Of a stretch of DNA of 44,111 nt, positions 269 through 41,301 are shown in pieces. The stretch comes from a phage. The first letter of the stretch is position 1; the number at the start of each line of letters is the position of its first letter. The translations under genes and the position numbers were made by a program. The notes under the pieces are model-generated. The model saw only the letters and a list, made by a program, of their open reading frames with translations, did no database searches and was not told the DNA's origin. The stretch is taken from the sequence record PZ379076.1; one strand, written 5' to 3'.

Positions 269-290
269 ATCTATTTTCTGTGATGACTAG

Positions 291-319
291 TTGACTATTA
301 TCCTCGACCCTATTATATT
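291..319 (+). promoter_or_regulatory. sigma70-like promoter for the 354-2492 small-gene operon
   Basis: TTGACT (291-296), 17-nt spacer, TATATT (314-319); ATG at 354 lies ~30 nt downstream behind an aacgagaacggag leader. Confidence 0.55.
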
Positions 320-7740: not shown

Positions 7741-7767
7741 TTTTCACCTCCTGCTTAAGTTAACTGA

Positions 7768-7796
7768 ATAGTACCCTATTATATTGGGGTGTGCAA
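7768..7796 (-). promoter_or_regulatory. promoter, TTGCAC-N17-TACTAT family
   Basis: Minus strand reads TTGCAC (7796-7791), 17-nt spacer with AATAG-N4-CTATT palindrome, TACTAT (7773-7768). Confidence 0.5.
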
Positions 7797-7862
7797 ACTA
7801 TTTATTTAATTATTCCAGTTATTCCGCTCAATTGTAAATGTTGGAATAAACTATTCGAATAG

Positions 7863-7891
7863 TTGACTTTTCACTAAAAATATGATAAGCT
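7863..7891 (+). promoter_or_regulatory. promoter of conserved element copy 1
   Basis: TTGACT (7863-7868), 17-nt spacer, TAAGCT (7886-7891); same arrangement at 39678-39706. Confidence 0.45.
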
Positions 7892-17087: not shown

Positions 17088-17279
17088 CTACTTCTCTTTC
17101 ACGTTCGAGTTACAAGCCCAGATTAAAATGAATACCCACGGCAACAGAACCCACCCGAGAAATAAGTTAGCCATGAATATCGCTAGCTTTGCTTTATGGT
17201 TTCGCATATGGGCCACAAAAAACGGGATAAAATAAACGCCTACAACAATAATTAAAAAGAACATAGCGATACCGGTCAT
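17088..17279 (-). CDS. small two-helix membrane protein (superinfection-immunity-like, putative)
   Basis: ATG 17279 with AGGAG SD (track ORF opens at 17306); two hydrophobic helices around HMRNHKAKLAIFMANLFLGW. Confidence 0.4.
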   Translation of the reverse strand: MTGIAMFFLIIVVGVYFIPFFVAHMRNHKAKLAIFMANLFLGWVLLPWVFILIWACNSNVKEK

Positions 17280-17321
17280 AACATAACTCCTGATTTGAGA
17301 TAACATCGTTGGTGTAAGTGA

Positions 17322-17350
17322 ATAGTACGCTATTATATCAGGGTGTGCAA
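17322..17350 (-). promoter_or_regulatory. promoter, TTGCAC-N17-TACTAT family (drives the minus-strand cassette)
   Basis: TTGCAC (17350-17345), 17-nt spacer with AATAG-N4-CTATT, TACTAT (17327-17322) on minus strand. Confidence 0.5.
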
Positions 17351-17457
17351 GTAGTATGTTAGAATAATTTTGCGCCTAGTGTCGCACACGAAAAGCGGGT
17401 GGTTCCCGTCTGGCGCATTTCCTTTAACCAGTAACCTCTTAACCAAAGGATTAAAGA

Positions 17458-27437: not shown

Positions 27438-27575
27438 CTACTCTTCTGATAACTTCTCCAGTACAAACGCCAGTTGCGCATTAGCGGCGTCTCTTTGCTG
27501 ACGTAGCCGCAGAACCTCTTCTTCGAGTTCCTTGATACGTTTTTGCAATGCCGGAATTGGGGCTATGATGTTCAT
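27438..27575 (-). CDS. hypothetical small coiled-coil protein (45 aa)
   Basis: ATG 27575 overlaps upstream stop (ATGA); translation MNIIAPIPALQKRIKELEEEVLRLRQQRDAANAQL...; below track cut-off. Confidence 0.4.
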   Translation of the reverse strand: MNIIAPIPALQKRIKELEEEVLRLRQQRDAANAQLAFVLEKLSEE

Positions 27576-28087
27576 CTGGTAAATTTCCTCGCAAGATACG
27601 TTATTTCTTCTTCACAAAGTTCATCAAGGTCGTTAGATACAAATCCTCTGGTGAATGTTTTGCTGAACTTTAATCCAGCTTTATCATTGTCGCCAGCGCA
27701 CACCCAGTCATACGGCAAAAGTGACATTTGCTGCCGTAGGTCTGTTGATATATTTGACCCCAGTGCGCTTACAGCATTGAACCCGCAATTCATCAAGGCT
27801 ACGGCTTTGAATATGCTTTCGGTAACAAATACCACCCCGCTTTCCGGCAAATACTCAAGCCCCCATAAACACGGCCTTGTTGTTCTGGTAAAGTACCGCG
27901 CGTCTTTAGGGTTTTTACAGTTCTTTTCGGCATGTGGTTTGTAATGCTGGTATCCGCGAAGCCTACCGTCAAACCCCCACAGGTAAAACGTAGCTACTCC
28001 AGGGGCTAAGACTACCTGGAGACGGTCAGCGTCAAACCCACGCGCCAGCAGATGAGCTTTAAGTAGAAACTCTTCGAAATCCATCAT
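27572..28087 (-). CDS. Toprim-domain protein (primase-like)
   Basis: 171 aa; ...VFVTESIFKAVALMNCGF...WVCAGDNDKAG gives the conserved Glu and DxD of the Toprim fold. Confidence 0.55.
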   Translation of the reverse strand: MMDFEEFLLKAHLLARGFDADRLQVVLAPGVATFYLWGFDGRLRGYQHYKPHAEKNCKNPKDARYFTRTTRPCLWGLEYLPESGVVFVTESIFKAVALMNCGFNAVSALGSNISTDLRQQMSLLPYDWVCAGDNDKAGLKFSKTFTRGFVSNDLDELCEEEITYLARKFTR

Positions 28088-29430: not shown

Positions 29431-29507
29431 CAGATATTACAGCGCGGGTGTTGCAGCATGAACGAAGTCATGAGCTTCTGGTACTCTCGACGGATAAATT
29501 TAGACAT
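29337..29507 (-). pseudogene. N-terminal fragment of the same helicase in the other frame
   Basis: ATG 29507, translation MSKFIRREYQKLMTSFMLQHPRCNIWCGMG... carries the Q-motif (REYQ) and the start of the P-loop; frames swap at the run 29417-29421. Confidence 0.55.
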
Positions 29508-29509
29508 GT

Positions 29510-29704
29510 TCAATCCTTAACGTAGAGTACCAGCTCTTTACGCCCGAACGCGGTAACGTTGCCTGTTACATCTTCGATAACCAGTTTACCGTTTGACTCG
29601 ACGAACACAGTATCAACGGCAACAGGCTGGCGGGTCTTAACGTTGAAAATCATGTCGCCAGGTACGATGTCACGTGCTGGTTTGCGGTCGTATTCGTGTT
29701 TCAT
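29510..29704 (-). CDS. hypothetical protein
   Basis: 64-aa ORF in track, first gene behind the promoter at 29738-29766. Confidence 0.55.
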   Translation of the reverse strand: MKHEYDRKPARDIVPGDMIFNVKTRQPVAVDTVFVESNGKLVIEDVTGNVTAFGRKELVLYVKD

Positions 29705-29734
29705 TTCTCAATTCCTTATATTGTTGGTGTAAGG

Positions 29735-30019
29735 CTAACTATAATAGTTCGCTATTAGGGTGTCAACCTGTTTGAACGAACCAACTACAAAAACATTTGC
29801 ACCACGCTTACGCATCCGCTCGTGCTCTCGTAACTGGTGCGGGTCAGGCTTCGTGCTTTCGTCTTTCTTCACCTCGACGAACCAGACGATGCCGCCAGGG
29901 AGAATTACCAGCAGGTCGGGAGCGCCGGAACGCCCCTCGTAGGAAAGTTTACGAACGAGGCCCCCAAGGGCCTCAAATCGCTCTTTTGCGTATTTCTGGA
30001 TGCGGCCCTCTTTAGTCAT
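29735..30019 (-). CDS. VRR-NUC-like PD-(D/E)xK nuclease
   Basis: ATG 30019 inside track ORF 29735-30199; ...GAPDLLVILPGGIVWFVEVKKDES...QLREHERM fits the D...E-V-K nuclease core. Confidence 0.55.
   Translation of the reverse strand: MTKEGRIQKYAKERFEALGGLVRKLSYEGRSGAPDLLVILPGGIVWFVEVKKDESTKPDPHQLREHERMRKRGANVFVVGSFKQVDTLIANYYS
29738..29766 (-). promoter_or_regulatory. strong sigma70-type promoter, TTGACA-N17-TATAGT family
   Basis: Minus strand TTGACA (29766-29761), 17-nt spacer with AATAG-N4-CTATT, TATAGT (29743-29738). Confidence 0.65.
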
Positions 30020-30168
30020 GACCGCAGCATCCAGGTAAGGAAAGCCCCGCCTAGAAGGGCAACACCGGCAAACTGAAAGAACAGGCCGTAACAGAACATA
30101 GCAGCTATTCCCGCACCGAGTAACAGTGCGAGCATGGTTACTATCGACCCGAATACAAACATTCTCAT
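30016..30168 (-). CDS. hypothetical 50-aa membrane peptide
   Basis: ATG 30168, translation MRMFVFGSIVTMLALLLGAGIAAMFCYGLFF...; GAGGGG SD; stop overlaps next start (ATGA). Confidence 0.35.
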   Translation of the reverse strand: MRMFVFGSIVTMLALLLGAGIAAMFCYGLFFQFAGVALLGGAFLTWMLRS

Positions 30169-30254
30169 AACACGCACCCCTCACGTTTGGTATGCTCAAT
30201 ACCGCAGCGCGGGCAGATTCGACAGTCTTCTTCGTAGAACCGGTAAATTTTCAT
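30165..30254 (-). CDS. hypothetical 29-aa Cys-rich peptide
   Basis: ATG 30254, translation MKIYRFYEEDCRICPRCGIEHTKREGCVL; ATGA-coupled on both sides. Confidence 0.3.
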   Translation of the reverse strand: MKIYRFYEEDCRICPRCGIEHTKREGCVL

Positions 30255-30382
30255 TCCAGCACCCACAGATAAATTGCGATGAACATACCCAATATGGCAA
30301 CCATCATGCCGTATTGACCCTCGTGACAGTAGACACCTGCGGCAAATCCCGCCAGTACCGCGATAATCAGTTTACTTAACAT
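30251..30382 (-). CDS. hypothetical 43-aa membrane peptide
   Basis: ATG 30382 with AGGAG SD, overlapping the last codons of the polymerase gene; translation MLSKLIIAVLAGFAAGVYCHEGQYGMMVAILGMFIAIYLWVLE. Confidence 0.35.
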   Translation of the reverse strand: MLSKLIIAVLAGFAAGVYCHEGQYGMMVAILGMFIAIYLWVLE

Positions 30383-32552
30383 AGCGTTTTAACTCCTGAC
30401 CTTCCGCTACAAGAGGGAACCCCTCCGCCCATTCTGGTAATTCGCACATCAATCGCTCAAGCTCTGCGACATTGTATTCCGGCGTATCTGGAGTTTCGCA
30501 GATAATCTCATCGTGGACATGAAGTACAATTGGATAACCGTTTGCTTCTACGTTCAGCAGCGCGTTGGCCAGCAAATCACGGCACAACGCCTGAGTGCAG
30601 TTTTCCACCAGTTTACCAGAGTAGGTGTACTGGAAGCCCCACTGCCGGGTTAACTGGTTTTCGCCCTGGTACTTGATGCGCACGTTAGTAGACACCTTTC
30701 CATCTTCGTCTGTCTCTTTCGACACACTTAATCCGACGCCCGGGTATGACATAACGCGACCCGACGGCAACGTCATGCGCAACCACCAGCCCGCGACTTT
30801 GTCGCCGTTGTTGTCTGTCTCTATGTTACGCGAAAACTTAACGCCTCGCGGTCCTGCGGTGAACTCTTTACCTGGATTGCGGATAGCGGCCATAGCTGCG
30901 TCTTCAATATCTCGCCAGAAAGCTACTGTTTCAGGGTGTGACTCTCGCCACATACGCTTGATAGCGTCACAGGTACGCCACACTTTCTTATCAAGAATAT
31001 ACGATGGTCGGTCATCCTTCTCCCCGGGTCGCGGCGGTCGCTTGGCTTCCTGAATACGTGCCCATTCATAGCCGCGTGCAGTAGCCGCCCAGATGTGGTC
31101 CGGGAAAGTACCGTCCATTGTTTTTGACATATCAACAAGGTCAAGTCCGAGGTTCTTAGCAAACTGAACGAAAGCGCCAACACCACCAGCGTAGCCGAGG
31201 CCAAGCTCGCAGGCTTTACCAATCTGGCGCAAGTCTTTGCGTTCCTTCTTAATGTAATCCGGCTCCATGCCGAACATCTTACCCGCGGTTACACAGTAAA
31301 TGTCCAGCCCGGCGCGGAACGTATCTAGCGCGGTTTCTTCGCCTGCCAGCCACGCAAGCCCCCGACCTTCAACGTTAGAGTAATCGGCAACGACAAACTT
31401 ATGCCCTGCTTCCGGTATGATGCAGCTACGAACGGTCGATGCCGTTAGCTTGGCCACATCGAAACGGCGATGGGCGCGACCCTTAAGTAACGCCGAAATG
31501 CCTTTATCCAGCTCATCATCGTGATAGTAACCGCGTGCCAGGTTCTGCGGCTGGAAGCCTTTACCGGCCCATCGCAGAGTACGCTTTGCCCCACCGTACT
31601 GGATACAACCGCGGCGTCGGTCGTCCGACGAGCGGCCTAACAGCAGCGGGTTATATTTCGTGGACGCTGTTGACGCGGCCCCGAGGCGCATTTCGATAAT
31701 CATCCGGGCGTCGTCCGGTAAATCATCATCTGCCAACAGGTCGTTAAGCGTCGACTTCTGTGCATTGTGTATGTGGTGCGCGGGCGCAAGTTCACGCAGA
31801 ATCGGAAGGAAGTCTTTACCGGTAAGCGAGCCGCCGTATTTACGTTGAGCTTCTTCCTGTAACTGTGCCTTGTGCTTCTCTACGGCTTCAATCGCGGCTT
31901 CCGCCAGTGCGACGTCAACCTTAAATCCGCGGTCGTTGATTAACTGGTCAAGTTCCAGTACACGGTCTTCGAACTCGGAGTTACCCCAACGCGGCAGCTT
32001 ATGGAAGACTTCACGCATCGCAGTGATGTCGCTCACGGCGTACCTGATGAACATCGCCCACTCGTCAGGGTGAGTTTCTGCGGTGTAGCGGCGGATTTTG
32101 TAGTTCTTCGGCGTCGGTTTAGAGAAACGCTTAATCAGAGCCTTGCCGCGTTTATCTTTCGCGTTGTCTGCAGACACGCCCAGCACTTCGCACAGCGCAT
32201 CAAGAGAACCCGGCAGCGCGTGACGGAACGCCCAAATCATAGTATCAATGGTGTTACTTACCGGAATATCAAAGTCCCAGCAGTGTTTCATGATTAGGCG
32301 ATCGAAAAGTCCACCGTTGTGCCACACCATCTTGATGCGGCTGTTGGGCTTAACAAGGCGGCGCAGTGCGCGGTGTAAATCCCCCGGCATGTCGCTGCCG
32401 TCGGTGCAATCCCATACCCGCACAGGTTCGTCGTCAAAAGCATATGTACAGATAAGCACTTCGGTTGACGGGTGTTCGGCGTAAGCGTAAGAACCGACTT
32501 TCTTCAAATCGGCTTCTGAGAATGTTTCAAAGTCTAAGAACAGGTAACTCAT
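30372..32552 (-). CDS. DNA polymerase, family A, with 3'-5' exonuclease domain
   Basis: 726 aa; Exo I FLDFETFS; polymerase motif A DYSNVEGR, motif B-like K...LGLGYAGG, motif C VHDE. Confidence 0.9.
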   Translation of the reverse strand: MSYLFLDFETFSEADLKKVGSYAYAEHPSTEVLICTYAFDDEPVRVWDCTDGSDMPGDLHRALRRLVKPNSRIKMVWHNGGLFDRLIMKHCWDFDIPVSNTIDTMIWAFRHALPGSLDALCEVLGVSADNAKDKRGKALIKRFSKPTPKNYKIRRYTAETHPDEWAMFIRYAVSDITAMREVFHKLPRWGNSEFEDRVLELDQLINDRGFKVDVALAEAAIEAVEKHKAQLQEEAQRKYGGSLTGKDFLPILRELAPAHHIHNAQKSTLNDLLADDDLPDDARMIIEMRLGAASTASTKYNPLLLGRSSDDRRRGCIQYGGAKRTLRWAGKGFQPQNLARGYYHDDELDKGISALLKGRAHRRFDVAKLTASTVRSCIIPEAGHKFVVADYSNVEGRGLAWLAGEETALDTFRAGLDIYCVTAGKMFGMEPDYIKKERKDLRQIGKACELGLGYAGGVGAFVQFAKNLGLDLVDMSKTMDGTFPDHIWAATARGYEWARIQEAKRPPRPGEKDDRPSYILDKKVWRTCDAIKRMWRESHPETVAFWRDIEDAAMAAIRNPGKEFTAGPRGVKFSRNIETDNNGDKVAGWWLRMTLPSGRVMSYPGVGLSVSKETDEDGKVSTNVRIKYQGENQLTRQWGFQYTYSGKLVENCTQALCRDLLANALLNVEANGYPIVLHVHDEIICETPDTPEYNVAELERLMCELPEWAEGFPLVAEGQELKRYVK

Positions 32553-32572
32553 TATTTTTGACCCCTAGTAAA

Positions 32573-32592
32573 AAGGCCCAATGAAGGGCCTT
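32573..32592 (-). terminator. rho-independent terminator between the SSB-like gene and the polymerase gene
   Basis: Stem aaggccc (32573-32579) / gggcctt (32586-32592); on the minus strand the stem is followed by TTTTAC; polymerase ATG only ~20 nt further. Confidence 0.55.
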
Positions 32593-32611
32593 AGTTAAAT
32601 TGATTCAGATA

Positions 32612-33238
32612 TTAGCGGCGGCGACGTTCGCGGCGCGGTGCTTCATCTTCTTCGTCGTCTTCCAGGTCATTGACGCTCGCAGCGACTTTAGAACCGCCGA
32701 ACGCTTTGCCTTCGCCAACGTATTTAATCGCCAGCAGGTTAACGCCGAGGACTTTGTATTTCTGGCTGAACCAGATTTCAACGCTTACGTTAGCTAAGCA
32801 TCCGCTGTAAACCTGTTCACCTTCAATCTGTTCACCGTCTACATTGAAGTCCTGTTCTACCTGAGTCTCACCTTTTTTAGAGGTTACAATCAGCGGCTGC
32901 TTCTGTGCCTTCGCTTTGAAGTAGAAGCCTTCCGGGAAGTCTTCAAACGGATTGTCACGCTCGGCAATGTCTTTAATCGCACATTTATCCATGTGCTTAC
33001 CTTCGCCGTAGTTGGACTTCATCCACTTCTCGGCGGCGGCTGCACCTAACGCTTCTTCAACTACAGCGTAAACGGTGTCGTAGAGCGCGTCGATTTGCGC
33101 GTGGTCGGACGGCAGGATAATAGTCGCGCTGTACTGACCTTTAGTGATTGAACCATCATCATTTTCACGGTCTTTTTCGCGTTCGAATACGTTAACCCAA
33201 GCAGTGTTTACTTTACGCAGATTTAATTTCAGTCCCAT
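32612..33238 (-). CDS. ssDNA-binding protein (DUF2815 / gp2.5-like, putative)
   Basis: 208 aa; acidic C-terminal tail DLEDDEEDE; sits between a DUF2800-like nuclease and a family A polymerase. Confidence 0.45.
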   Translation of the reverse strand: MGLKLNLRKVNTAWVNVFEREKDRENDDGSITKGQYSATIILPSDHAQIDALYDTVYAVVEEALGAAAAEKWMKSNYGEGKHMDKCAIKDIAERDNPFEDFPEGFYFKAKAQKQPLIVTSKKGETQVEQDFNVDGEQIEGEQVYSGCLANVSVEIWFSQKYKVLGVNLLAIKYVGEGKAFGGSKVAASVNDLEDDEEDEAPRRERRRR

Positions 33239-33293
33239 TTCTCGATTCCTCAGTTTTCAGTTTACTCCGGGAGCTGCCCGGCCAGTGATTAGA

Positions 33294-33322
33294 ACTATAA
33301 TAGCTAACTATTCAGGTGTCAA
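33294..33322 (-). promoter_or_regulatory. strong sigma70-type promoter, TTGACA-N17-TATAGT family
   Basis: Minus strand TTGACA (33322-33317), 17-nt spacer with AATAG-N4-CTATT, TATAGT (33299-33294). Confidence 0.65.
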
Positions 33323-33511
33323 ATAAAATTTCGCAATACGGACTATGTTCTCGAAATCATTCATATCAACGGGTTCGAATTCATCCTCCACATGGTTGTA
33401 TCGCACCATCGTGCCGTTCAGGAACGTAAACGATTCCGAATGGATATAACCGCCCCAGCGCCATATCATCACAAAATCTTTATCTGTGGGCATTTCATTT
33501 ACTTGAATCAT
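33308..33511 (-). CDS. hypothetical protein
   Basis: 67-aa ORF in track, coupled to the upstream nuclease gene. Confidence 0.5.
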   Translation of the reverse strand: MIQVNEMPTDKDFVMIWRWGGYIHSESFTFLNGTMVRYNHVEDEFEPVDMNDFENIVRIAKFYLTPE

Positions 33512-34749
33512 TATAAATCCTCCTCTGTTACCCTATTCCACTCAGGACGTTTGTCGTCTGCCGTTGCAACACATGGTGCGCCTGGCTTACGGGTAATGAA
33601 GTCTTTCAGTTCTTCTTCCGGTATGACTTTAACCGCTTCGGTTGGCGTCATGAGCACTTGCTTCATTAGCGCTATGCCATACTCGCCAGCCACTTTCTCT
33701 GCATCTTTCCACGCACGATTACCCGGGCGGCCTTCAACCAGCTTGTACCCCGGAACTTTCTTACCGGAATGCAACGCGGCAGCCATCGCTTTCTCAACCT
33801 TGTCGATGTGCTGGCGCAACAACGGCAACTTCTCATACTCAGCTACGAGTTGCTCCGGCGTAAGTTCCAGGGCAAAGTCGTCCTCCAGTTCTTCCGCCAG
33901 CACAGAGTTAACCGTCTTTGTACGCGCGGCGCACTGTTCAGAGAACCGGCACCACTGACAACCATCAACCGACGGCTTGAAGTCTGACGCTTTCAGGTTC
34001 TTCTTGCCACGGTGATAAGCATCAAGCGCTAACAGTGCGCGTTTCTGTGCGAACTTAGCGAACAGCTCCATACCTTCAACCGAGATGTCCCACTCCGACG
34101 CGCCGCCAGTGTACGGCTGGAAGATTACCAGACGAACAACTGTTATGTTATAACGTCTCTTGAGTCGGCGATAAACACCGAGAGCGTAAAGCATAAGCTG
34201 CTTGTTTTCTTTCGCTTCGACGCGATGCCGCCCGGTTTTCAGGTCGCCGATAATGAGCATGTGCTCGTCGGTGTTTGCCAGTTCCTGGACAGCAACGAGG
34301 TCAGCGGTTCCGAACGTCTCAACGCCTTCATACCCCGGATGCAATACCTCAGTAAGATTGACACGCATTTCCAGCTTGGCGTAAGTCGCTACGTCTATAA
34401 TCGCTTTGCAGTAGTCGGTGTACTTGCGCACCTGCTCAATCATGTCCGCCGTAATCAGTACCGCGCCTTTCATCGGGCTGATTAGCGCCTTAATCTGACC
34501 TTTGCCTTCATCCAGTACGTAAGCGCCGACTTCACGCTCCAACGGCAACGCAGTGCCGCGTATATAGGCGTTGAGATGGACCTCAGCTATGGTGTGCATG
34601 GCGGTTCCTAATACAGCGGCTTTACCCGACGTGTTAGGGGTATCTTTTTCACACGCCAGCGACGCAGCGCATGACAGCCACTTTTTAGCGCCTGACGGTG
34701 ACAGTAAGGCGTGTACATCATTATTGCCGCCTCGTTCTTTTAGAATCAT
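33511..34749 (-). CDS. PD-(D/E)xK nuclease (DUF2800 / Cas4-like, putative)
   Basis: 412 aa; ...TADLVAV...IIGDLKTGR...QLMLYA core plus Cys cluster (CQWCRF...C); GGAGGAGG SD. Confidence 0.6.
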   Translation of the reverse strand: MILKERGGNNDVHALLSPSGAKKWLSCAASLACEKDTPNTSGKAAVLGTAMHTIAEVHLNAYIRGTALPLEREVGAYVLDEGKGQIKALISPMKGAVLITADMIEQVRKYTDYCKAIIDVATYAKLEMRVNLTEVLHPGYEGVETFGTADLVAVQELANTDEHMLIIGDLKTGRHRVEAKENKQLMLYALGVYRRLKRRYNITVVRLVIFQPYTGGASEWDISVEGMELFAKFAQKRALLALDAYHRGKKNLKASDFKPSVDGCQWCRFSEQCAARTKTVNSVLAEELEDDFALELTPEQLVAEYEKLPLLRQHIDKVEKAMAAALHSGKKVPGYKLVEGRPGNRAWKDAEKVAGEYGIALMKQVLMTPTEAVKVIPEEELKDFITRKPGAPCVATADDKRPEWNRVTEEDL

Positions 34750-35006
34750 TATTTAGCCTCCTCCGGTAGTTCTGGTAAATACATCCAGTGTGTTATACCC
34801 ATCTCGATATACCGTTTCGTATATAACTGATTTCCGTTTTCATCCAGCCCAGCAGTAATGTCGTCGAAATAGTCCTGTATATGCACAAAATCAATTCCGC
34901 CTTCCGGGAACCCATTATCGTCACATTTACTTCCGTCTACTGAGCAAACTAAAACAGAATCATCTTTTTACTCTGGTAGTGCTTCGTTTACGCTAACCCA
35001 ATTCAT
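34749..35006 (-). pseudogene. DUF551-like gene interrupted by an in-frame TAA
   Basis: One frame reads MNWVSVNEALPE-TAA(34970-34968)-KDDSVLVCSVDG...GITHWMYLPELPEEAK; both halves match the intact paralog at 40745-40930. Confidence 0.5.
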
Positions 35007-35275
35007 ACCCTGTTATCCCACTGGTCAATTAAATGTCGTGTCTTATGGTCGCAGTGCATGGCCCACCCATACATCGACTCGAAGACATAAAAGTCAGGCT
35101 TGGCGAAAGTTGTGCGCTTAATCTGTGACACGTGACGGCCTATATCTTTAGGCCGTGGTACTTTTCCTAAGTACGCCATCTCTTCCATCTGGTGCGCACC
35201 GGACGGAGCACGCAATAGCCATAGCGCCTCTGTGTTATCCCGCCTGTCGACGGCTCGGTAGAGTTGGTAAATCAT
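35003..35275 (-). CDS. hypothetical protein
   Basis: 90-aa ORF in track; stop overlaps next start. Confidence 0.55.
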   Translation of the reverse strand: MIYQLYRAVDRRDNTEALWLLRAPSGAHQMEEMAYLGKVPRPKDIGRHVSQIKRTTFAKPDFYVFESMYGWAMHCDHKTRHLIDQWDNRV

Positions 35276-35318
35276 AATTCCGACCCTCAGTTAAAGCGGC
35301 CCGAAGGCCGCGAGATAG

Positions 35319-35819
35319 TTATTCTTCTTCGAAATACTTGTTCTTGATTGCTGTCAGGCGTTCCAGGTACTCAACCAGGTCTTCGTCTTTAATCGCGGCA
35401 ATCTTCATCTTCTTACCTGTGAACTCTTCCAGCAGTTCATCAGAATCATCGCACGCGGCATCGATAGGACCTTCATTAATTGCATCGTCGATGGCCTGAA
35501 TCTGGTCACGCAGAGACTTGTAATCGACTTCTTCTTTCTCTTCTTCCGGTTCTGGCGCAGGTTCCTCTACTTTAGCTTTACGCGGCTTGCGTTTTGGCTT
35601 CTCTTCCTCCGCCGGTTTAGTGTCAACTACGTCTTCACCTTCAACCGGGATTTCTTTTGTTGCTTCTTCAGCGCACTCAGCTACCGCTTCTTTGGTGTAC
35701 GATACCGTCTCTACTTCCAGCGGCGTGGCAACCTGAACAACTTGTTTCGCACTGTTCGCGGCAATCAGTTCGTGCGCAACTACGAAACGTTCCAGTAATA
35801 CTAAGAATTTCTCTAACAT
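35319..35819 (-). CDS. highly acidic hypothetical protein
   Basis: 166 aa with very high Glu/Asp content, e.g. PEPEEEKEEVDYKS and DDSDELLEE; early-region position. Confidence 0.6.
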   Translation of the reverse strand: MLEKFLVLLERFVVAHELIAANSAKQVVQVATPLEVETVSYTKEAVAECAEEATKEIPVEGEDVVDTKPAEEEKPKRKPRKAKVEEPAPEPEEEKEEVDYKSLRDQIQAIDDAINEGPIDAACDDSDELLEEFTGKKMKIAAIKDEDLVEYLERLTAIKNKYFEEE

Positions 35820-35843
35820 TATTTATTCTCCTGTTTATTTGAG

Positions 35844-36071
35844 TTACTCGCCGTCGCCTTCTGTAAGGCTATCGTCTATTAATTCAAATTTACCGTTTGG
35901 GTGTTGAATAGCTTCTTGCCCGCAATGGTCGCAGACAACAAGTTTATCGAACCCATCAAACTCGTCCCCGACTACGCAAGAAAGTACAAATTTATGTTTT
36001 GTGCACACTTCCTGCGATTCTCCGAAAATTGCTAGAAAACCTTTAGCTATGGCTCCCGTTATTGTGTTCAT
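35844..36071 (-). CDS. small Cys/His zinc-ribbon-like protein
   Basis: 75 aa; VCTKHKF...VVCDHCGQE, same C-x-H ... C-x2-C-G pattern as repeats in the 41733-42491 protein; first gene behind the 36100 promoter. Confidence 0.55.
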   Translation of the reverse strand: MNTITGAIAKGFLAIFGESQEVCTKHKFVLSCVVGDEFDGFDKLVVCDHCGQEAIQHPNGKFELIDDSLTEGDGE

Positions 36072-36099
36072 ATCCGCCCCTCTCGTTTGGTATGGGCTA

Positions 36100-36128
36100 A
36101 CTATAATAGCGAACTATTCACATGTCAA
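36100..36128 (-). promoter_or_regulatory. strong sigma70-type promoter, TTGACA-N17-TATAGT family
   Basis: Minus strand TTGACA (36128-36123), 17-nt spacer with AATAG-N4-CTATT, TATAGT (36105-36100). Confidence 0.65.
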
Positions 36129-36192
36129 TGGGCTTTTCTAAAATAATTAATATGGTACTATTCACATATCAACTGACTAAGGAGTAATTGAC

Positions 36193-36408
36193 ATGCAACC
36201 ATCTGAACTAGGTATCCGTGTAGAACAACGCCGTAAAGAACTCGGCATCTCCCAGCGCCGTTTGGCGGCCCTGACCGGCGTTTCCCAGGGCGCGATTAAC
36301 CAACTGGCACTTGGAGTAACTCAGGACGTCCGCCCGGCAACGCTGTTCAAACTGGCGGAAGTTCTGGAAGTAGACGCCAAGTGGCTGGCGTTAGGTGAAG
36401 GGGCTTAA
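36193..36408 (+). CDS. HTH transcriptional regulator (XRE / Cro-CI-like)
   Basis: 71 aa; ISQRRLAALTGVSQGAINQL is a helix-turn-helix signature; AAGGAG SD; only plus-strand gene in the minus-strand region. Confidence 0.7.
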   Translation: MQPSELGIRVEQRRKELGISQRRLAALTGVSQGAINQLALGVTQDVRPATLFKLAEVLEVDAKWLALGEGA

Positions 36409-36423
36409 AGCCCCTTTCTTTTT
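36398..36423 (+). terminator. rho-independent terminator after the HTH gene
   Basis: Near-palindrome aaggggctt / aagcccctt around the stop codon, then TTCTTTTTAT. Confidence 0.6.
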
Positions 36424-36736
36424 ATAGCAACTTATCGAGTTCTTCCAAATTCTTAATAGTGTGTTGCACGTTCAGGTACTGAATCCAGGCGAGAAACCAC
36501 GCACTTACAGGAAAACTTATAACAATAGTTATCGATATAATTAATTTGAAAAGGCACTTTATAATCTCTGCCAGCGTCATGTCTAAAATGTCTTTAAACT
36601 CCGCAAAAATCCCCGCTGCATACACACAAAAAGTCCACCAGTTGTTGCTTACAGCGGAAACACATGTCAGGTATGACGGGCGGTATCCTGCCTTCACTGC
36701 TTTAAACGGGTTATCTATAAAATCGTAAATATTCAT
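36422..36736 (-). CDS. hypothetical membrane protein
   Basis: 104 aa with two or three hydrophobic helices; ATGA overlap with upstream gene. Confidence 0.55.
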   Translation of the reverse strand: MNIYDFIDNPFKAVKAGYRPSYLTCVSAVSNNWWTFCVYAAGIFAEFKDILDMTLAEIIKCLFKLIISITIVISFPVSAWFLAWIQYLNVQHTIKNLEELDKLL

Positions 36737-38985
36737 TCCAAATCCTCCTCGGTCACTGTCAGCATTTCATTCGGCTCGTATATTGTCTTCGGAATCTTGT
36801 TATCTGTTATCATGGTGTTCAGTCTGTAACGGCCTGGGATTATCTGATTGTTTTCGTCAGTACCCGGAACAAGATACCCAGCCTCAACCATTTTCTTAAT
36901 CTTCCCGCGTTCTATGGCTTCTTTGGAGTTAAACGCCTTTGCGTTGGGGTCAGACTGCGCGAGCTTATTCGCTGCGGATACCGTGATGCCCTCGTTGCCG
37001 TTGTAGGTCCCCTCCGCCAGTTCAAACGCCGCGAGTATCGTGGCCTCGGAACTGTTGACGGCGTTCTCTATGGTTTTACGTACATTTTGTTTACCTTCGT
37101 TAGTTAACCCTTCTTCCCTCTCTTTCTCCTCGTCGGTCTTGAATGGCTCGAAGCCCCACGGCATCAATACAAGCGCCTTGTGCGGCTCAGGCAGGTCGAG
37201 GTTTACTATTGTGCCGTATTCCTCTGTGCTACCGAGGAACTCAACCGCGCGGTACTCTTTCGGCGGCGGTGCTTCACGGAACTGTACAGACTCCAGTACC
37301 ATGCCAACCGTCTTCTGTTGCGGACCGTGCTTAAATTTAGAGTGGTATACGTTTATCTGACGGTCGGTAGCGCGTTCGATTGTCAGTTCCACGTCGACAC
37401 CCGCATACAATGCTCCACTGCCGCGGGCTTTCTTTCCGCCCTTCGGAGTATGGTGAACGACACCGACAGCGGCTTTAGTTGCATCGCGCACTTCTTTCAG
37501 GATGGCGATAACTTTACCCATACCGATTGCCGTTGATGAACTGTTCTCGTCGAACTTATCAATCGTCAGGGCCAGCGTCTGGTTAAGGGTGTCGAAGGCA
37601 ACCATGCCAATAGGTTCATCCCCTGCGGTTTCGCGCATCCTGCGGATTAGAGCTGGAATTTTTTTATCACCATGCGTAGCGAGTATTTCGCCCATATCGA
37701 TGACATGTACATAATCTTTACCTTCCTCGCCATATTTAGCCGCGAGTGCATCAATACGTGTTCGTGTAGCTGCACCACCCTCGCCGTCAATATAGAAATG
37801 GTGGCAACGTTGGGTGTCAGCCCCCGCAAACCGGTACCCGGCGGCGCTCAGGTGCATCATCCCCAGCGTATAGAATGATTTGTACGTGCCGGATTCCCCG
37901 ACAATATCCCAGATACAATCCGACGGCATGTACCCCTCAACGACGAAATCAGCCTTTACCGGTTCTGGTAACTCGTCCTCTTCTTCAAGGTCTTCCAGCG
38001 TGCAAGTTACAGGCTCCTCGTTCTCTGTGCGGTGCAGTTCTTCAATCTCTTCATCCGGTAAATCAGGCAGAGCCGCACGAATGCTGTTAATACTGATAGG
38101 TTGCTTGTCTACGTTAAGCTCGTCTGGCAGGCCGCACATACGCAGGGCCAAATGCTGTCGGCGGTTAAGCTCGGTGCAAGCGCCGTTGTTTGTATGCTGG
38201 CACACAAAGCGCACTTCTTTACCATCAAGCATGATGCTTGTGGAGCCTTTGCCTGTATGCAGATGTTCGTTAGGGCATGGGACTTCGTACCCGCGCCCGG
38301 AAGATAAAGCGTCAAGGCCAAGCTCGGCTTCGCAGAAATGCGCTATATCAGCATTAAGCCCATACTCATCGGCGGCAAGTGTCTTAACTTCACGTTTACT
38401 CAACCCCATCTCTTCGGCTTTCTTGATGTACCGCTCGGCACGGATAACACGCCCTTCTGTAACCGTTATCTTTGACTCTCTATGTGGCAGATAGATAAGG
38501 CGGTTGCCGTCTTCCGTGCAGTGGTCACGCAAGGCTTCATCTATTTCTAACTCTGCACAAATAGCCCGTTGGACCATCCACGCGTCGTTAGAGTTAAACG
38601 GCGTGCGAGCCGGAACCAGAACGCGGAAGGCGTAATCACCGTTTTTACACACATGCTGATGCGATGCCGTTGTATGCAGAATATTGAAGAACGGTGCGTT
38701 CTTGAATTTGCGGGTAAGGTCGCGGTACTGAGTACGGTTGAGATGGTCAAAATCGAACTTAACCACACTGTCTTCCAGGATAGCGTTTTTACGGCGACCC
38801 CCAACAGGCGCAATAGCTTTCTGCTTAATCTTGGCAGCGTCGTACTCTTCCTTAGACCACGACGGATCCACGGATAAACGCTTCGATGTATCGCAGACAT
38901 ACTCCACAAACTGCTCGAGCGGCATCTCACGCGCTACAGGGTTTTTATCGAATGTGTTGCGCAGCGTTGCAAAAACAATATTCAT
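36733..38985 (-). CDS. primase / replicative helicase (RecA-like ATPase domain)
   Basis: 750 aa; Walker A GESGTYKS in the C-terminal half, Cys/His-rich N-terminal half; largest ORF of the replication region. Confidence 0.55.
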   Translation of the reverse strand: MNIVFATLRNTFDKNPVAREMPLEQFVEYVCDTSKRLSVDPSWSKEEYDAAKIKQKAIAPVGGRRKNAILEDSVVKFDFDHLNRTQYRDLTRKFKNAPFFNILHTTASHQHVCKNGDYAFRVLVPARTPFNSNDAWMVQRAICAELEIDEALRDHCTEDGNRLIYLPHRESKITVTEGRVIRAERYIKKAEEMGLSKREVKTLAADEYGLNADIAHFCEAELGLDALSSGRGYEVPCPNEHLHTGKGSTSIMLDGKEVRFVCQHTNNGACTELNRRQHLALRMCGLPDELNVDKQPISINSIRAALPDLPDEEIEELHRTENEEPVTCTLEDLEEEDELPEPVKADFVVEGYMPSDCIWDIVGESGTYKSFYTLGMMHLSAAGYRFAGADTQRCHHFYIDGEGGAATRTRIDALAAKYGEEGKDYVHVIDMGEILATHGDKKIPALIRRMRETAGDEPIGMVAFDTLNQTLALTIDKFDENSSSTAIGMGKVIAILKEVRDATKAAVGVVHHTPKGGKKARGSGALYAGVDVELTIERATDRQINVYHSKFKHGPQQKTVGMVLESVQFREAPPPKEYRAVEFLGSTEEYGTIVNLDLPEPHKALVLMPWGFEPFKTDEEKEREEGLTNEGKQNVRKTIENAVNSSEATILAAFELAEGTYNGNEGITVSAANKLAQSDPNAKAFNSKEAIERGKIKKMVEAGYLVPGTDENNQIIPGRYRLNTMITDNKIPKTIYEPNEMLTVTEEDLE

Positions 38986-39110
38986 TTCTTTTTCTCCGCA
39001 CGTTCTAAGGCTTCCTGCATACGGCGCATTGCGCGGTTCATCTTTACCGGTGCGAAGAAGTCAGCGCCGTGTTTCTGGCGGCGTAGCTGTGGAACTATTA
39101 ACTTTGTCAT
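38982..39110 (-). CDS. hypothetical small basic protein (42 aa)
   Basis: ATG 39110 with AAGGA SD; stop overlaps the primase/helicase ATG; below track cut-off. Confidence 0.4.
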   Translation of the reverse strand: MTKLIVPQLRRQKHGADFFAPVKMNRAMRRMQEALERAEKKK

Positions 39111-39150
39111 TGTATAATCCTTATGCTTACTTTGATGATTTGTACTTTAG

Positions 39151-39180
39151 CCCCGACGTTCTGGCGTTGGGGTTTCTTTT
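39151..39180 (+). terminator. plus-strand hairpin with T-run (orphan terminator)
   Basis: Stem ccccgacg (39151-39158) / cgttgggg (39165-39172) incl. one G-U pair, then TTTCTTTT; no plus-strand gene upstream. Confidence 0.35.
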
Positions 39181-39391
39181 ACTTAACGCCCGCAATCCAC
39201 GCACGCTCCGAAGCGTAGAAACGACACTTACTTAAAGCCTCGATTGGCATCTTAATAATGCGTGTCGGTTCCAACAAATGATTAGGCTTACATATTTCCG
39301 CATAGAATCCGCTGTCAGTAATTTCCGACGCAAACTTAAACCAGTATTTAACTTTACAGTTTTCAAAGTAACAACCCATACGCCCAATCAT
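39179..39391 (-). CDS. hypothetical protein
   Basis: 70-aa ORF in track, ATGA-coupled to the upstream HTH gene. Confidence 0.5.
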   Translation of the reverse strand: MIGRMGCYFENCKVKYWFKFASEITDSGFYAEICKPNHLLEPTRIIKMPIEALSKCRFYASERAWIAGVK

Positions 39392-39570
39392 TTCACGTTC
39401 TCCTTAATCCATGCTTCAACTTTATTACGGTCAAATGTTCCTGGTAAACGGCGACCCATAACCTTAATACAGCAATCAGGGAATTTACCGCTGCGCAACC
39501 AGTTATTAATTGTTTGACGTGTCACCCCGATACGTTCAGCCACTTCATTCTGTGTCATGTAATGCTGCAT
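39388..39570 (-). CDS. AlpA / excisionase-like HTH DNA-binding protein
   Basis: ATG 39570 with AGGAGA SD inside track ORF 39388-39642; MTQNEVAERIGVTRQTINNWLRSGKFP ... VEAWI matches the AlpA-type pattern. Confidence 0.6.
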   Translation of the reverse strand: MQHYMTQNEVAERIGVTRQTINNWLRSGKFPDCCIKVMGRRLPGTFDRNKVEAWIKENVK

Positions 39571-39677
39571 TTTTATATCTCCTGTTTGTTTGGTGAAAAC
39601 GAGTATAGGATAGCGTGAATGTAAAAGCAACCAAAACACCACACAAAGTTACTAATATACAAAAGATGCTAATGGTA

Positions 39678-39706
39678 TTGACTTTTACTAAGAAATGTGC
39701 TAAGCT
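39678..39706 (+). promoter_or_regulatory. promoter of conserved element copy 2
   Basis: TTGACT (39678-39683), 17-nt spacer, TAAGCT (39701-39706). Confidence 0.45.
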
Positions 39707-39815
39707 CCACCTGAGCTTGTGAAGTATGAACAAGCGACCGCGGTGCGGCAGGAAACGGAGCGGTGCGTCAGCACTGAGTGTAGTGTCGCTGCCTGCATTC
39801 GGAAGGGCCATAATC
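39701..39815 (+). repeat. conserved ~115-nt element, copy 2
   Basis: Matches 7886-8000; stem-loop GGUGC-gtca-GCACU at 39762-39775 replaces GGGAC-gtaa-GUCCU of copy 1. Confidence 0.85.
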
Positions 39816-39907
39816 TATTGTAAATCCCGTCTAAATAACCCAAGTCACTAATAATTAAAAGTTTCTATAGTTGCCGTAAGCAAGGTAGAGAGTACTTCAC
39901 TCCGCTG

Positions 39908-39927
39908 GGGTGGGCTAAAGCCCACCC
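39908..39927 (+). other. GC-rich hairpin downstream of copy 2
   Basis: gggtgggc (39908-39915) taaa gcccaccc (39920-39927); weak T-rich tract ~13 nt later. Confidence 0.4.
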
Positions 39928-39986
39928 GCTGCGTTGCGTACTCTTTAAAGAAACAAAAGAATCACAACGGCAACGTAACTATTATC

Positions 39987-40015
39987 TTGCACACCCCAAC
40001 ATAATAGGATACTAT
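39987..40015 (+). promoter_or_regulatory. promoter, TTGCAC-N17-TACTAT family
   Basis: TTGCAC (39987-39992), 17-nt spacer with AATAG-N4-CTATT, TACTAT (40010-40015); acgagacagaggag leader before ATG. Confidence 0.5.
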
Positions 40016-40043
40016 TCACTTATCGGAACGAGACAGAGGAGTG

Positions 40044-41242: not shown

Positions 41243-41271
41243 TTGCACACTAAGATAGAATAGGCTACTAT
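41243..41271 (+). promoter_or_regulatory. promoter, TTGCAC-N17-TACTAT family
   Basis: TTGCAC (41243-41248), 17-nt spacer with AATAG-N4-CTATT, TACTAT (41266-41271); aaacgagaggagaga leader. Confidence 0.5.
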
Positions 41272-41301
41272 TCATTTACACAAACGAGAGGAGAGACAGA
41301 G

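What the first reader, a model, noticed from the sequence alone, without database searches (positions are those of the whole stretch)
36100..36173. Two promoter families built around one palindrome, AATAG-N4-CTATT(CA)
Three minus-strand promoters are near-consensus TTGACA-N17-TATAGT (29738-29766, 33294-33322, 36100-36128) and four others are TTGCAC-N17-TACTAT (7768-7796 and 17322-17350 on minus; 39987-40015 and 41243-41271 on plus). All seven carry AATAG-N4-CTATT in the spacer overlapping the -10. A degenerate copy (AATAT-ggta-CTATTCAC, 36148-36167) sits just upstream of the XRE-like HTH gene, and a 12-bp perfect palindrome CTATTCGAATAG (7851-7862) abuts the copy-1 promoter. This looks like a common operator for one phage-encoded regulator.
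Basis: seen in the sequence. Interest (0 to 1): 0.65.

Follow-up and report, generated by a model that had tools for sequence, protein, structure and literature searches.

The report
Shared operator palindrome in phage promoters
A 14-base inverted repeat sits inside the core of nearly every strong host-type promoter of this lytic E. coli phage (a Kagunavirus); it is most likely the binding site of one small phage repressor that turns the promoters down together, an ordinary kind of control that the literature has mislabelled as a "phage RNA polymerase promoter".

Summary
AATAG-N4-CTATT occurs 7 times exactly (0.02 expected), always inside the seven claimed promoters: three TTGACA-N17-TATAGT and four TTGCAC-N17-TACTAT. 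Three more conserved one-mismatch copies also overlap promoters, at 286, 7858 and 36149.

The window is a complete Kagunavirus genome (Guernseyvirinae). The palindrome occupies three registers: over the -35, in the spacer, and over the -10.

In Kaguna/Jersey relatives, 30 of 31 unique promoters chosen only by their hexamers carry it. The arms are nearly invariant and the central 4 bp are free. Outgroup phages keep the hexamers but have lost the palindrome.

This fits a dimer-binding operator that occludes RNA polymerase. It does not fit a promoter element or an activator site.

The regulator could not be assigned. The 434-Cro-like XRE protein (36193-36408) fits by fold, site geometry and adjacency. 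The MerR/excisionase-like HTH_17 protein (39388-39570) fits by strict co-occurrence. Each has contrary comparative evidence.

The same 20-mers were already published for phage fBC-Eco01 as "phage RNAP promoters", although no RNA polymerase gene exists. Verdict: real, a new member of a known kind, of modest interest.

The parts
36105..36118 (.). Exact palindrome AATAGCGAACTATT in the spacer of family-A promoter 36100-36128 (minus; TTGACA-N17-TATAGT). This promoter drives the leftward 75-aa, 166-aa, 90-aa and exonuclease genes.
33299..33312 (.). Exact palindrome in family-A promoter 33294-33322 (minus), upstream of the SSB-like gene and DNA polymerase.
   Evidence: The orthologous site is conserved in Jersey, SZH-1 and LM02P1.
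29743..29756 (.). Exact palindrome in family-A promoter 29738-29766 (minus), upstream of the 64-aa gene and DNA helicase. It lies in the last codons of the upstream VRR-NUC gene.
7767..7780 (.). Exact palindrome over the -10 of family-B promoter 7768-7796 (minus; TTGCAC-N17-TACTAT), upstream of the 67-aa gene 7537-7740.
17321..17334 (.). Exact palindrome over the -10 of family-B promoter 17322-17350 (minus), upstream of the Imm-like, exonuclease, PNK and dNMP-kinase genes.
40003..40016 (.). Exact palindrome over the -10 of family-B promoter 39987-40015 (plus), upstream of the small early-type genes from 40041.
41259..41272 (.). Exact palindrome over the -10 of family-B promoter 41243-41271 (plus).
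36149..36162 (.). One-mismatch copy AATATGGTACTATT. On the minus strand it is a weaker tandem family-A promoter (TTGATA-N18-AATTAT, 36143-36172). On the plus strand it supplies a family-B-like -10 (TACTAT, 36156-36161), about 30 nt before the XRE start codon.
   Evidence: Conserved in SHAK7858, SZH-1 and LM02P1.
286..299 (.). One-mismatch copy ACTAGTTGACTATT. Its centre plus right arm form the -35 TTGACT of promoter 291-319 (plus; TTGACT-N17-TATATT).
   Evidence: Jersey has AATAGTTGACTAGT at the orthologous annotated promoter.
7851..7871 (.). Everted 12-bp palindrome CTATTCGAATAG (7851-7862) fused to the one-mismatch copy AATAGTTGACTTTT (7858-7871). The -35 TTGACT (7863-7868) belongs to an extended -10 promoter (TGaTAAGCT, -10 at 7886-7891) reading rightward.
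36193..36408 (+). XRE/HTH_3 protein of 71 aa, 434-Cro-like. It is the leading candidate regulator.
   Evidence: PF01381, E 3.9e-13; 434 Cro 1zug, E 8.5e-6
39388..39570 (-). HTH_17 protein of 56-60 aa, a MerR/excisionase-like winged helix. It is the rival candidate regulator. It is the first gene of the helicase-primase operon, whose promoter carries no palindrome.
   Evidence: PF12728, E 1.6e-8; promoter read

Best explanation
AATAG-N4-CTATT is the operator of a phage-encoded dimeric helix-turn-helix repressor. It is embedded in the core of the phage's sigma-70-type promoters.

A bound dimer would cover the spacer (three family-A promoters in front of the replication genes), the -10 (four family-B promoters in front of early or accessory genes) or the -35 (two weaker, imperfect sites in front of rightward operons). 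In each case it would exclude host RNA polymerase, so these transcription units would be turned down together as the regulator accumulates. Perfect sites would be filled first. Imperfect ones (286, 7858, 36149) would be filled last.

The most likely regulator is the 71-aa 434-Cro-like XRE protein (36193-36408). Its gene lies within 90 bp of one perfect and one degenerate copy, and its own probable -10 lies in the degenerate copy, which suggests autoregulation.

Shown: the motif, its statistics, its placement, and its conservation and loss pattern. Inferred: protein binding, repression, the temporal order and the identity of the regulator.
For: Motif statistics:
- 7 exact sites against 0.02 expected, all in promoters.
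- 3 further conserved one-mismatch sites also lie in promoters.

Placement and conservation:
- There are three different registers relative to the -35 and -10. This is incompatible with a fixed activator position or a sigma element.
- Choosing promoters by hexamers alone, 30 of 31 unique Kaguna/Jersey promoters carry the site. The arms have about 2 bits of information and the centre about 0, with 26 different central tetramers.
- The core is identical in Jerseyvirus, where DNA polymerase is about 80% identical, and sits at orthologous promoters.
- Outgroups SE1 and TS6 keep TTGACA/TTGCAT and TATAGT/TATATT at the orthologous promoters, but the arms have decayed.
- The composite promoter plus palindrome is found in IMG/VR only in this clade.

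For XRE specifically:
- It has 434-Cro-like sequence and size.
- The 5-4-5, 14-bp layout equals that of 434 operators (established knowledge).
- Two copies lie within 90 bp upstream of its gene.
- It is 94-100% conserved within Kagunavirus.
- The base flanking each arm is T in 30 of 30 cases with the Jersey-type XRE. With the Kaguna-type XRE it is a T/G mix, whichever HTH_17 helix variant is present.
- Serratia phage Smarc3 has XRE but no HTH_17, and keeps one exact and two one-mismatch sites in promoters.
Against: - There is no binding or transcription data.
- XRE homologues (40-43% identical) persist in SE1, TS6 and VLCpiS11a. These have no such palindrome and no other repeated palindrome.
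- Residues aligned to the 434 base-contact positions are Q,G,A,N,Q in Kagunavirus and Q,S,L,T,H in Jersey, yet the 14-bp core is identical.
- The flank covariation is confounded with a single genus split.
- A repressor of near-consensus replication promoters needs a timing mechanism, which is not shown.
- The one available RNA-seq study (K1B4, PMC12645636) has too low a resolution to test shut-off.
Confidence: 0.4

Rival explanations
1. Same operator and same occlusion mechanism, but the binder is the 56-60-aa HTH_17 winged-helix protein (39388-39570). It is made from the only strong leftward promoter that lacks the palindrome, so it would accumulate unchecked and progressively shut the other promoters.
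For: - Co-occurrence is strict. The gene is present (69-100% identical) in all 5 whole genomes that have 4-8 exact sites. It is absent from all 5 genomes with 0-1 sites.
- Only three genes have that profile, and this is the only one with a DNA-binding fold.
- It is 80-86% identical between Kagunavirus and Jerseyvirus, which parallels the invariant core.
- The predicted fold (pLDDT 82) resembles BldC, RacA, NmlR and excisionases, with TM 0.6-0.68.
- RacA's domain of this fold binds a 14-bp inverted repeat (established knowledge, recalled).
- Its own promoter TTGCTT-N17-TATACT has no site.
Against: - The LM02P1/K1H-type variant changes the recognition helix (RQTINNW to PMTLNRW), yet those genomes keep 8 identical exact sites.
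- Smarc3 lacks the gene but retains near-perfect sites at the same registers.
- The co-occurrence may reflect one clade-defining rearrangement, the inversion of the XRE/helicase-primase block.
- Small proteins of this fold (BldC, Xis) usually bind direct repeats.
- There is no site near its own gene.
- Foldseek E-values are only 0.01-0.1.
Confidence: 0.25
2. The palindrome is bound by something else. This could be an unrecognised small phage protein (for example a ribbon-helix-helix protein) or a host DNA-binding protein that the phage exploits.
For: - Neither HTH candidate passes all comparative tests.
- Many small conserved ORFs have no Pfam match.
- The hosts of motif-bearing phages (Escherichia, Salmonella and partly Serratia) are related enterobacteria.
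Against: - SE1 and TS6 also infect Salmonella but lack the motif.
- The only other genes with the right presence/absence profile encode 43 aa (hydrophobic) and 62 aa (weak Lar-like hit).
- No known enterobacterial regulator site that I can recall matches. TrpR's ACTAG-TTAA-CTAGT differs at the critical C of CTAG. This rests on memory and was not tested.
Confidence: 0.12
3. No trans-factor is involved. The repeat reflects common descent or duplication of promoter cassettes, or an intrinsic contribution of the A/T-rich sequence to promoter strength.
For: - The right arm overlaps the -10 in family B (TACTAT) and touches it in family A.
- Promoters within a family share more than the hexamers, for example TTGCACACCCCAAYAT.
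- Outgroups have related A/T-rich spacers.
Against: - The left arm lies at -25..-21 (family A) or -19..-15 (family B), where sigma-70 has no sequence requirement.
- Two-fold symmetry is kept while the centre and flanks drift.
- The same 14-mer appears at three registers, including over the -35.
- Outgroups keep functional-looking hexamers without the symmetry.
Confidence: 0.1
4. It is a positive-control site. One version is a phage-specific promoter read by a phage RNA polymerase or sigma factor, which is the published PHIRE reading. The other is a loading site for a Q/AlpA-type antiterminator.
For: - fBC-Eco01 Table S2 lists these 20-mers as 'Phage RNAP promoter PP1-PP7'.
- Q and AlpA binding elements lie inside promoters (established knowledge).
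- HTH_17 belongs to the same broad excisionase/AlpA-like superfamily.
- The genome does have promoter, structured RNA, terminator and operon arrangements.
Against: - There is no RNA polymerase or sigma gene. The largest ORFs are 750, 726 and 661 aa and are helicase-primase, DNA polymerase and tail fibre.
- A palindrome cannot set direction, and good sigma-70 hexamers flank every site.
- The sites lie at three registers.
- The seven promoters are followed within about 25-40 nt by a ribosome-binding site and a gene, not by a terminator.
- The HTH_17 protein has no N-terminal extension before its HTH. The recalled AlpA architecture has an N-terminal segment followed by a C-terminal HTH.
Confidence: 0.06

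Closest known systems
Phage 434 (lambdoid) Cro/repressor with its 14-bp operators ACAA-N6-TTGT
   Same: - A small XRE-fold protein of 71 aa, the same length as 434 Cro, with a sequence match at E 8.5e-6.
- 14-bp two-fold symmetric sites with conserved outer bases and a free centre.
- Sites overlapping core promoter elements.
- The regulator gene next to sites in a divergent promoter region.
- The expected role is turning down early transcription during lytic growth.
   Different: - 434 has six operators in two clusters within one immunity region. Here there are 7-10 single sites scattered over the whole 44-kb genome, at three registers.
- There is no CI partner, integrase or lysogeny module.
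- Binding is untested, and the recognition residues are not conserved between genera.
Minimal MerR-like or excisionase-like winged-helix DNA binders (BldC, RacA DNA-binding domain, Xis/RdfS)
   Same: - The HTH_17 protein has this predicted fold.
- MerR-type proteins bind palindromes in the -35/-10 spacer, as in family A.
- RacA binds a 14-bp inverted repeat (recalled).
   Different: - The spacers here are the optimal 17 bp, so MerR-type activation by DNA distortion is not needed.
- There is no coiled-coil dimerisation helix.
- BldC and Xis bind direct repeats.
- Structural matches are weak (E 0.01-0.1).
PHIRE-predicted 'phage RNAP promoters' of Kagunaviruses (fBC-Eco01, PMC9825357; Golestan, PMC7203180)
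   Same: It is the same sequence element. PP1-PP7 are TGAATAGTACCCTATTATAT and variants, and there are seven per genome.
   Different: - Those papers treat it as a promoter for a phage-encoded polymerase, but no such gene exists.
- The element is palindromic and nested inside sigma-70 hexamers.
- The family-A copies and the copies over the -35 were mostly not listed.

Membership tests
Sigma-70-type bacterial promoter | -35 TTGACA-like and -10 TATAAT-like hexamers separated by 16-18 bp | tested here: met
   Family A matches 11 of 12 consensus bases with a 17-bp spacer, three times. Family B, TTGCAC-N17-TACTAT, matches only 7 of 12 but recurs four times and is conserved.
Sigma-70-type bacterial promoter | Transcription start about 7 nt downstream of the -10, with activity using host holoenzyme | not testable with these tools
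   No start-site data exist for this group. The K1B4 RNA-seq study (PMC12645636) reports gene-level time classes only.
Operator of a dimeric HTH repressor (434/lambda Cro type) | Two-fold symmetric site of about 14-17 bp with conserved arms and a non-conserved centre | tested here: met
   Arms have about 2 bits and the centre about 0. There are 26 different central tetramers in 67 unique family-A-type sites. 30 of 31 promoters chosen by hexamers alone carry the site.
Operator of a dimeric HTH repressor (434/lambda Cro type) | Site overlaps core promoter elements so that binding excludes RNA polymerase | tested here: met
   Site centres lie at about -18.5 (family A) and -12.5 (family B), and over the -35 at 286 and 7858.
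Operator of a dimeric HTH repressor (434/lambda Cro type) | Regulator gene adjacent to at least one site (autoregulation) | tested here: met
   XRE starts at 36193. Sites lie at 36105-36118 and 36149-36162. This is not met for HTH_17, whose promoter has no site.
Operator of a dimeric HTH repressor (434/lambda Cro type) | Regulator and site co-vary or co-occur across relatives | tested here: inconclusive
   - XRE is present in the motif-less SE1, TS6 and VLCpiS11a, and its contact residues differ between Kagunavirus and Jerseyvirus.
- The flank base does track the XRE type.
- HTH_17 co-occurs in 10 of 10 genomes, but a helix variant keeps the same site and Smarc3 keeps sites without the gene.
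Operator of a dimeric HTH repressor (434/lambda Cro type) | Specific binding of the protein to the site and repression in vivo | not testable with these tools
   Needs EMSA or footprinting and reporter or mutant-phage assays.
Phage-RNA-polymerase-specific promoter (published PHIRE reading) | The phage encodes its own RNA polymerase or sigma factor | tested here: not met
   The closest annotated genome has no such gene among its 83 CDS. No ORF exceeds 750 aa, and the three largest are helicase-primase, DNA polymerase and tail fibre.
Q/AlpA-type antiterminator loading site | Binding element in a promoter that is followed by a terminator which must be read through | tested here: not met
   The seven exact-site promoters are followed within about 25-40 nt by a Shine-Dalgarno sequence and a start codon, with no terminator. 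Only the imperfect site at 7858 precedes an RNA element and a terminator.
MerR-type spacer operator | Palindrome in an over-long (19-20 bp) spacer, and a regulator with a coiled-coil dimerisation helix | tested here: not met
   Spacers are 17 bp. The HTH_17 model has only a winged helix plus one short C-terminal helix, 60 aa in all.

The most novel reading that the evidence does not exclude
One small repressor with sites in essentially every strong sigma-70 promoter acts as a genome-wide brake in phages regarded as strictly lytic and widely used for therapy and biocontrol.

The rightward late operons would escape the brake in two ways. Their promoters carry only imperfect sites or none. They also begin with structured leader RNAs: a new ~120-nt duplicated element and an int-alpA-like RNA, each followed by a terminator. 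These RNAs would act like put RNAs and make RNA polymerase resistant to termination.

The whole temporal programme would then run on host polymerase with one repressor plus cis-acting RNAs. The brake could also allow a reversible dormant or carrier state.
Probability: 0.12. Interest if true: 0.65.

Novelty: new member of a known kind. Interest (0 to 1): 0.35.

Why it matters
Kagunaviruses and Jerseyviruses are among the phages most often isolated and proposed against E. coli and Salmonella, yet how they time their gene expression is unknown.

- **Candidate master switch.** Recognising that the recurrent 20-mer is an operator nested in host-type promoters, not a "phage polymerase promoter", corrects published annotations. 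It also gives a simple, testable model with one regulator, about ten sites and two candidate proteins.
- **Practical uses.** It supplies portable, repressible promoter parts and a handle for engineering these phages.
- **Limits.** In kind it is a Cro-and-operator arrangement, so a specialist would not be much surprised.

Tried and rejected
- **Covariation of recognition helix and site.** Neither candidate behaves cleanly.
- **Distant HTH_17 homologues.** The large protein database returned only 16 proteins at 68% identity or more. IMG/VR returned in-clade loci plus three unrelated weak hits with no motif. No independent lineages were available for testing.
- **In-clade genomes lacking one of the two genes.** Every locus long enough has both. 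L088 does not reach that region.
- **A replacement palindrome in the outgroups that might be an XRE operator.** Self-BLAST and dyad counts of SE1, TS6, Smarc3 and VLCpiS11a found none shared by several promoters. Only terminators and a few local repeats appeared.
- **Temporal data.** The K1B4 RNA-seq paper gives only coarse classes: an HTH gene is 'early', and a 'specific DNA binding' gene plus an AAA-domain gene are 'middle'. Its held supplements list host genes only, so the phage genes could not be mapped.
- **N-terminus of 15919-17049 as regulator.** Rejected on family assignment and presence/absence profile.
- **Phage RNA polymerase promoter.** Rejected because no such gene exists.
- **TrpR-operator resemblance** (ACTAG-TTAA-CTAGT, from memory). 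Noted but not pursued, because the exact sites lack CTAG.
- **RNA hairpin role.** Rejected because the arms are only 5 bp and lie upstream of the inferred start sites.
- **Rfam.** Nothing was found at the palindromes.

Full report
**What the window is.** The 44,111-bp window is a complete genome of a Kagunavirus (Guernseyvirinae), about 95% identical to Escherichia phage SHAK7858 and 91-93% identical to several BASEL phages. The gene order is:
- rightward packaging, head and tail operons;
- two short leftward cassettes, 7537-7740 and 14880-17306;
- a long leftward replication cluster, 27438-39570;
- one isolated rightward XRE gene, 36193-36408;
- rightward small early-type and lysis genes from 40041.

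**Checking the observation.** AATAGNNNNCTATT has 7 exact matches against 0.02 expected in shuffles.
- TTGACA-N17-TATAGT is at 29738-29766, 33294-33322 and 36100-36128, on the minus strand. It matches 11 of 12 consensus bases.
- TTGCAC-N17-TACTAT is at 7768-7796 and 17322-17350 (minus) and at 39987-40015 and 41243-41271 (plus).
- The 12-bp palindrome at 7851-7862 and the degenerate copy at 36149-36162 are also there.

With one mismatch allowed there are 12 sites against 1.09 expected. Three of the extra sites are conserved in relatives and overlap promoters.
- 286-299 is ACTAG-TTGA-CTATT. It lies inside TTGACT-N17-TATATT at 291-319.
- 7858-7871 is AATAG-TTGA-CTTTT. It lies inside TTGACT-N14-TGa-TAAGCT.
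- 36149-36162 is the third.

The fourth, 5964-5977, spans the start codon of the head-morphogenesis gene and is probably coincidental.

**Anatomy.**
- In family A the palindrome starts 4 nt after the -35 and ends on the first T of the -10. Its centre is at about -18.5.
- In family B it starts 10 nt after the -35, and its right arm supplies CTAT of the -10 TACTAT. Its centre is at about -12.5.
- At 286 and 7858 the centre plus the right arm form the -35 itself.
- In Kagunavirus the extended motif is asymmetric (TGAATAG-N4-CTATTAT) and is inverted between families A and B.
- The degenerate copy at 36149 can be read two ways. It can be a weaker tandem family-A promoter on the minus strand (TTGATA-tgtg-AATAGTACCATATT-AATTAT). 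It can also give a family-B-like -10 (TACTAT) on the plus strand, about 30 nt before the XRE start codon, with no good -35.

**Is the palindrome an element in its own right?**
- I selected promoters in 52 Kaguna/Jersey genomes and loci only on TTGAYA-N17-TAWADT. Of 31 unique sequences, 30 have the palindrome (at most one mismatch) at the same register. Arm positions carry about 2 bits and the four central positions about 0.
- Among 67 unique family-A-type sites there are 26 different central tetramers.
- Salmonella phage Jersey, whose DNA polymerase is about 80% identical, has the same core at the orthologous promoters. There it is extended to a 16-bp perfect palindrome, TAATAG-N4-CTATTA.
- More distant Guernseyvirinae keep the hexamers at orthologous promoters but not the symmetry. 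SE1 and TS6 read TTGACA-ctga-ATTATTAAACTATT-ATATT and TTGCAT-aacgg-ATTAGTTTAGTATT-ATAGTT. VLCpiS11a and the Dhillonvirus slur06 have nothing.
- Serratia phage Smarc3 is intermediate, with one exact, two one-mismatch and two two-mismatch copies, all in promoters.
- In IMG/VR (2.9 million contigs) the composite TTGACA-N4-AATAG-N4-CTATTATA occurs only in contigs of this clade.

The left arm lies where sigma-70 has no sequence preference. The symmetry is maintained while centre and flanks drift, and the same 14-mer is used at three registers. The best reading is therefore a binding site for a two-fold symmetric protein that competes with RNA polymerase, that is, a repressor operator.

**Which protein?** Two small HTH proteins are encoded. 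Neither can be confirmed or excluded.

*XRE, 36193-36408 (PF01381, E 3.9e-13).* It is 71 aa long and matches 434 Cro and repressor at E about 1e-5.
- For: 434 operators are 14 bp with conserved outer bases and a free centre (established knowledge), exactly the layout seen here.
- For: the gene sits within 90 bp of two copies of the site.
- For: it is 94-100% conserved within Kagunavirus.
- For: the base flanking the arms follows the XRE type. It is T in 30 of 30 cases with the Jersey-type XRE and a T/G mix with the Kaguna-type XRE, whichever HTH_17 helix variant is present.
- For: Smarc3 keeps sites with XRE alone.
- Against: XRE homologues persist in motif-less outgroups.
- Against: residues aligned to the 434 contact positions differ at four of five places between Kagunavirus (Q,G,A,N,Q) and Jersey (Q,S,L,T,H), although the core is the same.

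*HTH_17, 39388-39570 (PF12728, E 1.6e-8).* It is predicted (pLDDT 82) to be a minimal MerR/excisionase-like winged helix. The nearest structures are BldC, RacA, NmlR and Xis, with TM 0.6-0.68.
- For: it is present in all five motif-bearing whole genomes and absent from all five motif-poor ones.
- For: only three genes have that profile, and it is the only DNA binder among them.
- For: it heads the helicase-primase operon, whose promoter (TTGCTT-N17-TATACT) has no site.
- Against: the LM02P1/K1H-type variant changes three recognition-helix residues (RQTINNW to PMTLNRW) while eight exact sites stay unchanged.
- Against: Smarc3 has sites without the gene.
- Against: the co-occurrence may be a by-product of one rearrangement. 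In SE1 and TS6, XRE itself heads the helicase-primase operon. In Kagunavirus and Jersey that block is inverted and HTH_17 has taken the first position.

I weigh this as roughly 0.40 for XRE, 0.25 for HTH_17 and 0.12 for another factor.

**Alternatives.**
- *Phage-polymerase promoter.* This is how the fBC-Eco01 paper labels these same 20-mers: PP1-PP7, consensus tgAATAGTa-ccTATTat-T. Golestan likewise reports seven PHIRE promoters. The reading is untenable because no polymerase or sigma gene exists, the element is palindromic, and it is nested in sigma-70 hexamers.
- *Q/AlpA-type loading site.* This is unlikely. The seven promoters run straight into genes with no terminator.
- *Cassette duplication alone.* This does not explain the maintained symmetry, the free centre or the three registers.

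**Model.**
- The operator-free promoter at about 39600-39630 expresses the HTH_17 and helicase-primase operon.
- The seven perfect-operator promoters drive small early genes, nucleotide-metabolism genes and the replication genes.
- As the repressor accumulates, these promoters are occluded together.
- Promoters with imperfect sites (291-319, 7863-7891 and the XRE promoter) are affected last.

All of this beyond the sequence facts is inference.

**Seen in passing: leader RNAs on the rightward operons.** All three long rightward operons start with an extended -10 promoter and a structured leader.
- A 121-nt element is duplicated at 7886-8005 and 39701-39820, with 88% identity.
- Each copy follows TTGACT-N14-TGn-TAAGCT and precedes an intrinsic terminator, at 8072-8091 and 39901-39932.
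- Twelve unique copies from Kagunavirus loci support a long stem with compensatory changes and a hypervariable apical hairpin that always pairs.
- Rfam has no match for it.
- The tail operon is preceded by a borderline Rfam int-alpA RNA hit at 17369-17433: 36.6 bits against a threshold of 35.8. The hit is not seen in Jersey, SE1, Smarc3, SZH-1, slur06 or VLCpiS11a.

These RNAs may be antitermination leaders or small RNAs. They were only partly followed up.

**Verdict.** The operator reading is well supported by comparative sequence evidence but is unproven, and the regulator is unassigned. The element itself is already in the literature under a wrong label. It is a new member of a known kind, a Cro-type repressor and operator regulon, unusual only in being spread over nearly all promoters of a lytic phage. 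Interest 0.35.

Noticed in passing
window 7886-8005 and 39701-39820 (+): A 121-nt direct repeat (88% identical). Each copy lies just downstream of a TTGACT-N14-TGn-TAAGCT extended -10 promoter and about 70-100 nt upstream of an intrinsic terminator (8072-8091; 39901-39932) and a long rightward operon. Twelve unique Kagunavirus copies show a conserved 5' hairpin, a long stem with compensatory pairs and a hypervariable apical hairpin that always pairs. There is no Rfam match, and it is absent from Jersey and the outgroups. It is a candidate new structured RNA, either a put-like antiterminator leader or a small RNA.
   Followed up: partly
window 17369-17433 (+): A borderline Rfam hit to int-alpA RNA (RF02996; 36.6 bits, threshold 35.8). 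It is preceded by an extended -10 (TGtTAGAAT) and lies directly upstream of the tail-chaperone and tape-measure operon, back to back with the family-B promoter at 17322-17350. It is not detected at threshold in Jersey, SE1, Smarc3, SZH-1, slur06 or VLCpiS11a.
   Followed up: partly
window, leaders downstream of 17322, 29738, 36100, 40015, 41271, 319 and about 39600: Most of these promoters share a short 5' leader resembling (T)TACACCAAACGAGAGGAG that ends in the ribosome-binding site. It could be a common translation-initiation region or a trace of cassette duplication.
   Followed up: no
window 36193-39570, compared with L003 (SE1) 4112-7002 and L007 (TS6) 1205-4095: In SE1 and TS6 the XRE gene is the first gene of the helicase-primase operon. 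In Kagunavirus and Jersey that block is inverted relative to XRE, the XRE gene stands alone behind a bidirectional terminator (36397-36417), and the HTH_17 gene heads the helicase-primase operon.
   Followed up: partly
L001 (OR594183.1, SHAK7858) 32743-32958: In the closest GenBank relative the XRE ORF, which is 100% identical, is not annotated. A 96-nt ORF on the opposite strand is annotated instead. The record is filed under Autographiviridae/Kayfunavirus and named vB_EcoM, although it is a Kagunavirus-like siphovirus genome.
   Followed up: no
window 5964-5977: The one-mismatch copy TATAGTATGCTATT spans the start codon of the head-morphogenesis gene, just after a terminator hairpin (5944-5959). 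It is conserved in SHAK7858 and LM02P1 but is probably held by coding and initiation constraints rather than being an operator.
   Followed up: no
L005 (Serratia phage Smarc3) 80-113, 3780-3812 and 27538-27572: A 33-35-nt repeat, TAGTAGAATACGATTAACCCATCGAAACGAGAC, at three family-B-like promoters. It appears to be a diverged, less symmetric version of the Kagunavirus element in a phage that has XRE but no HTH_17.
   Followed up: partly
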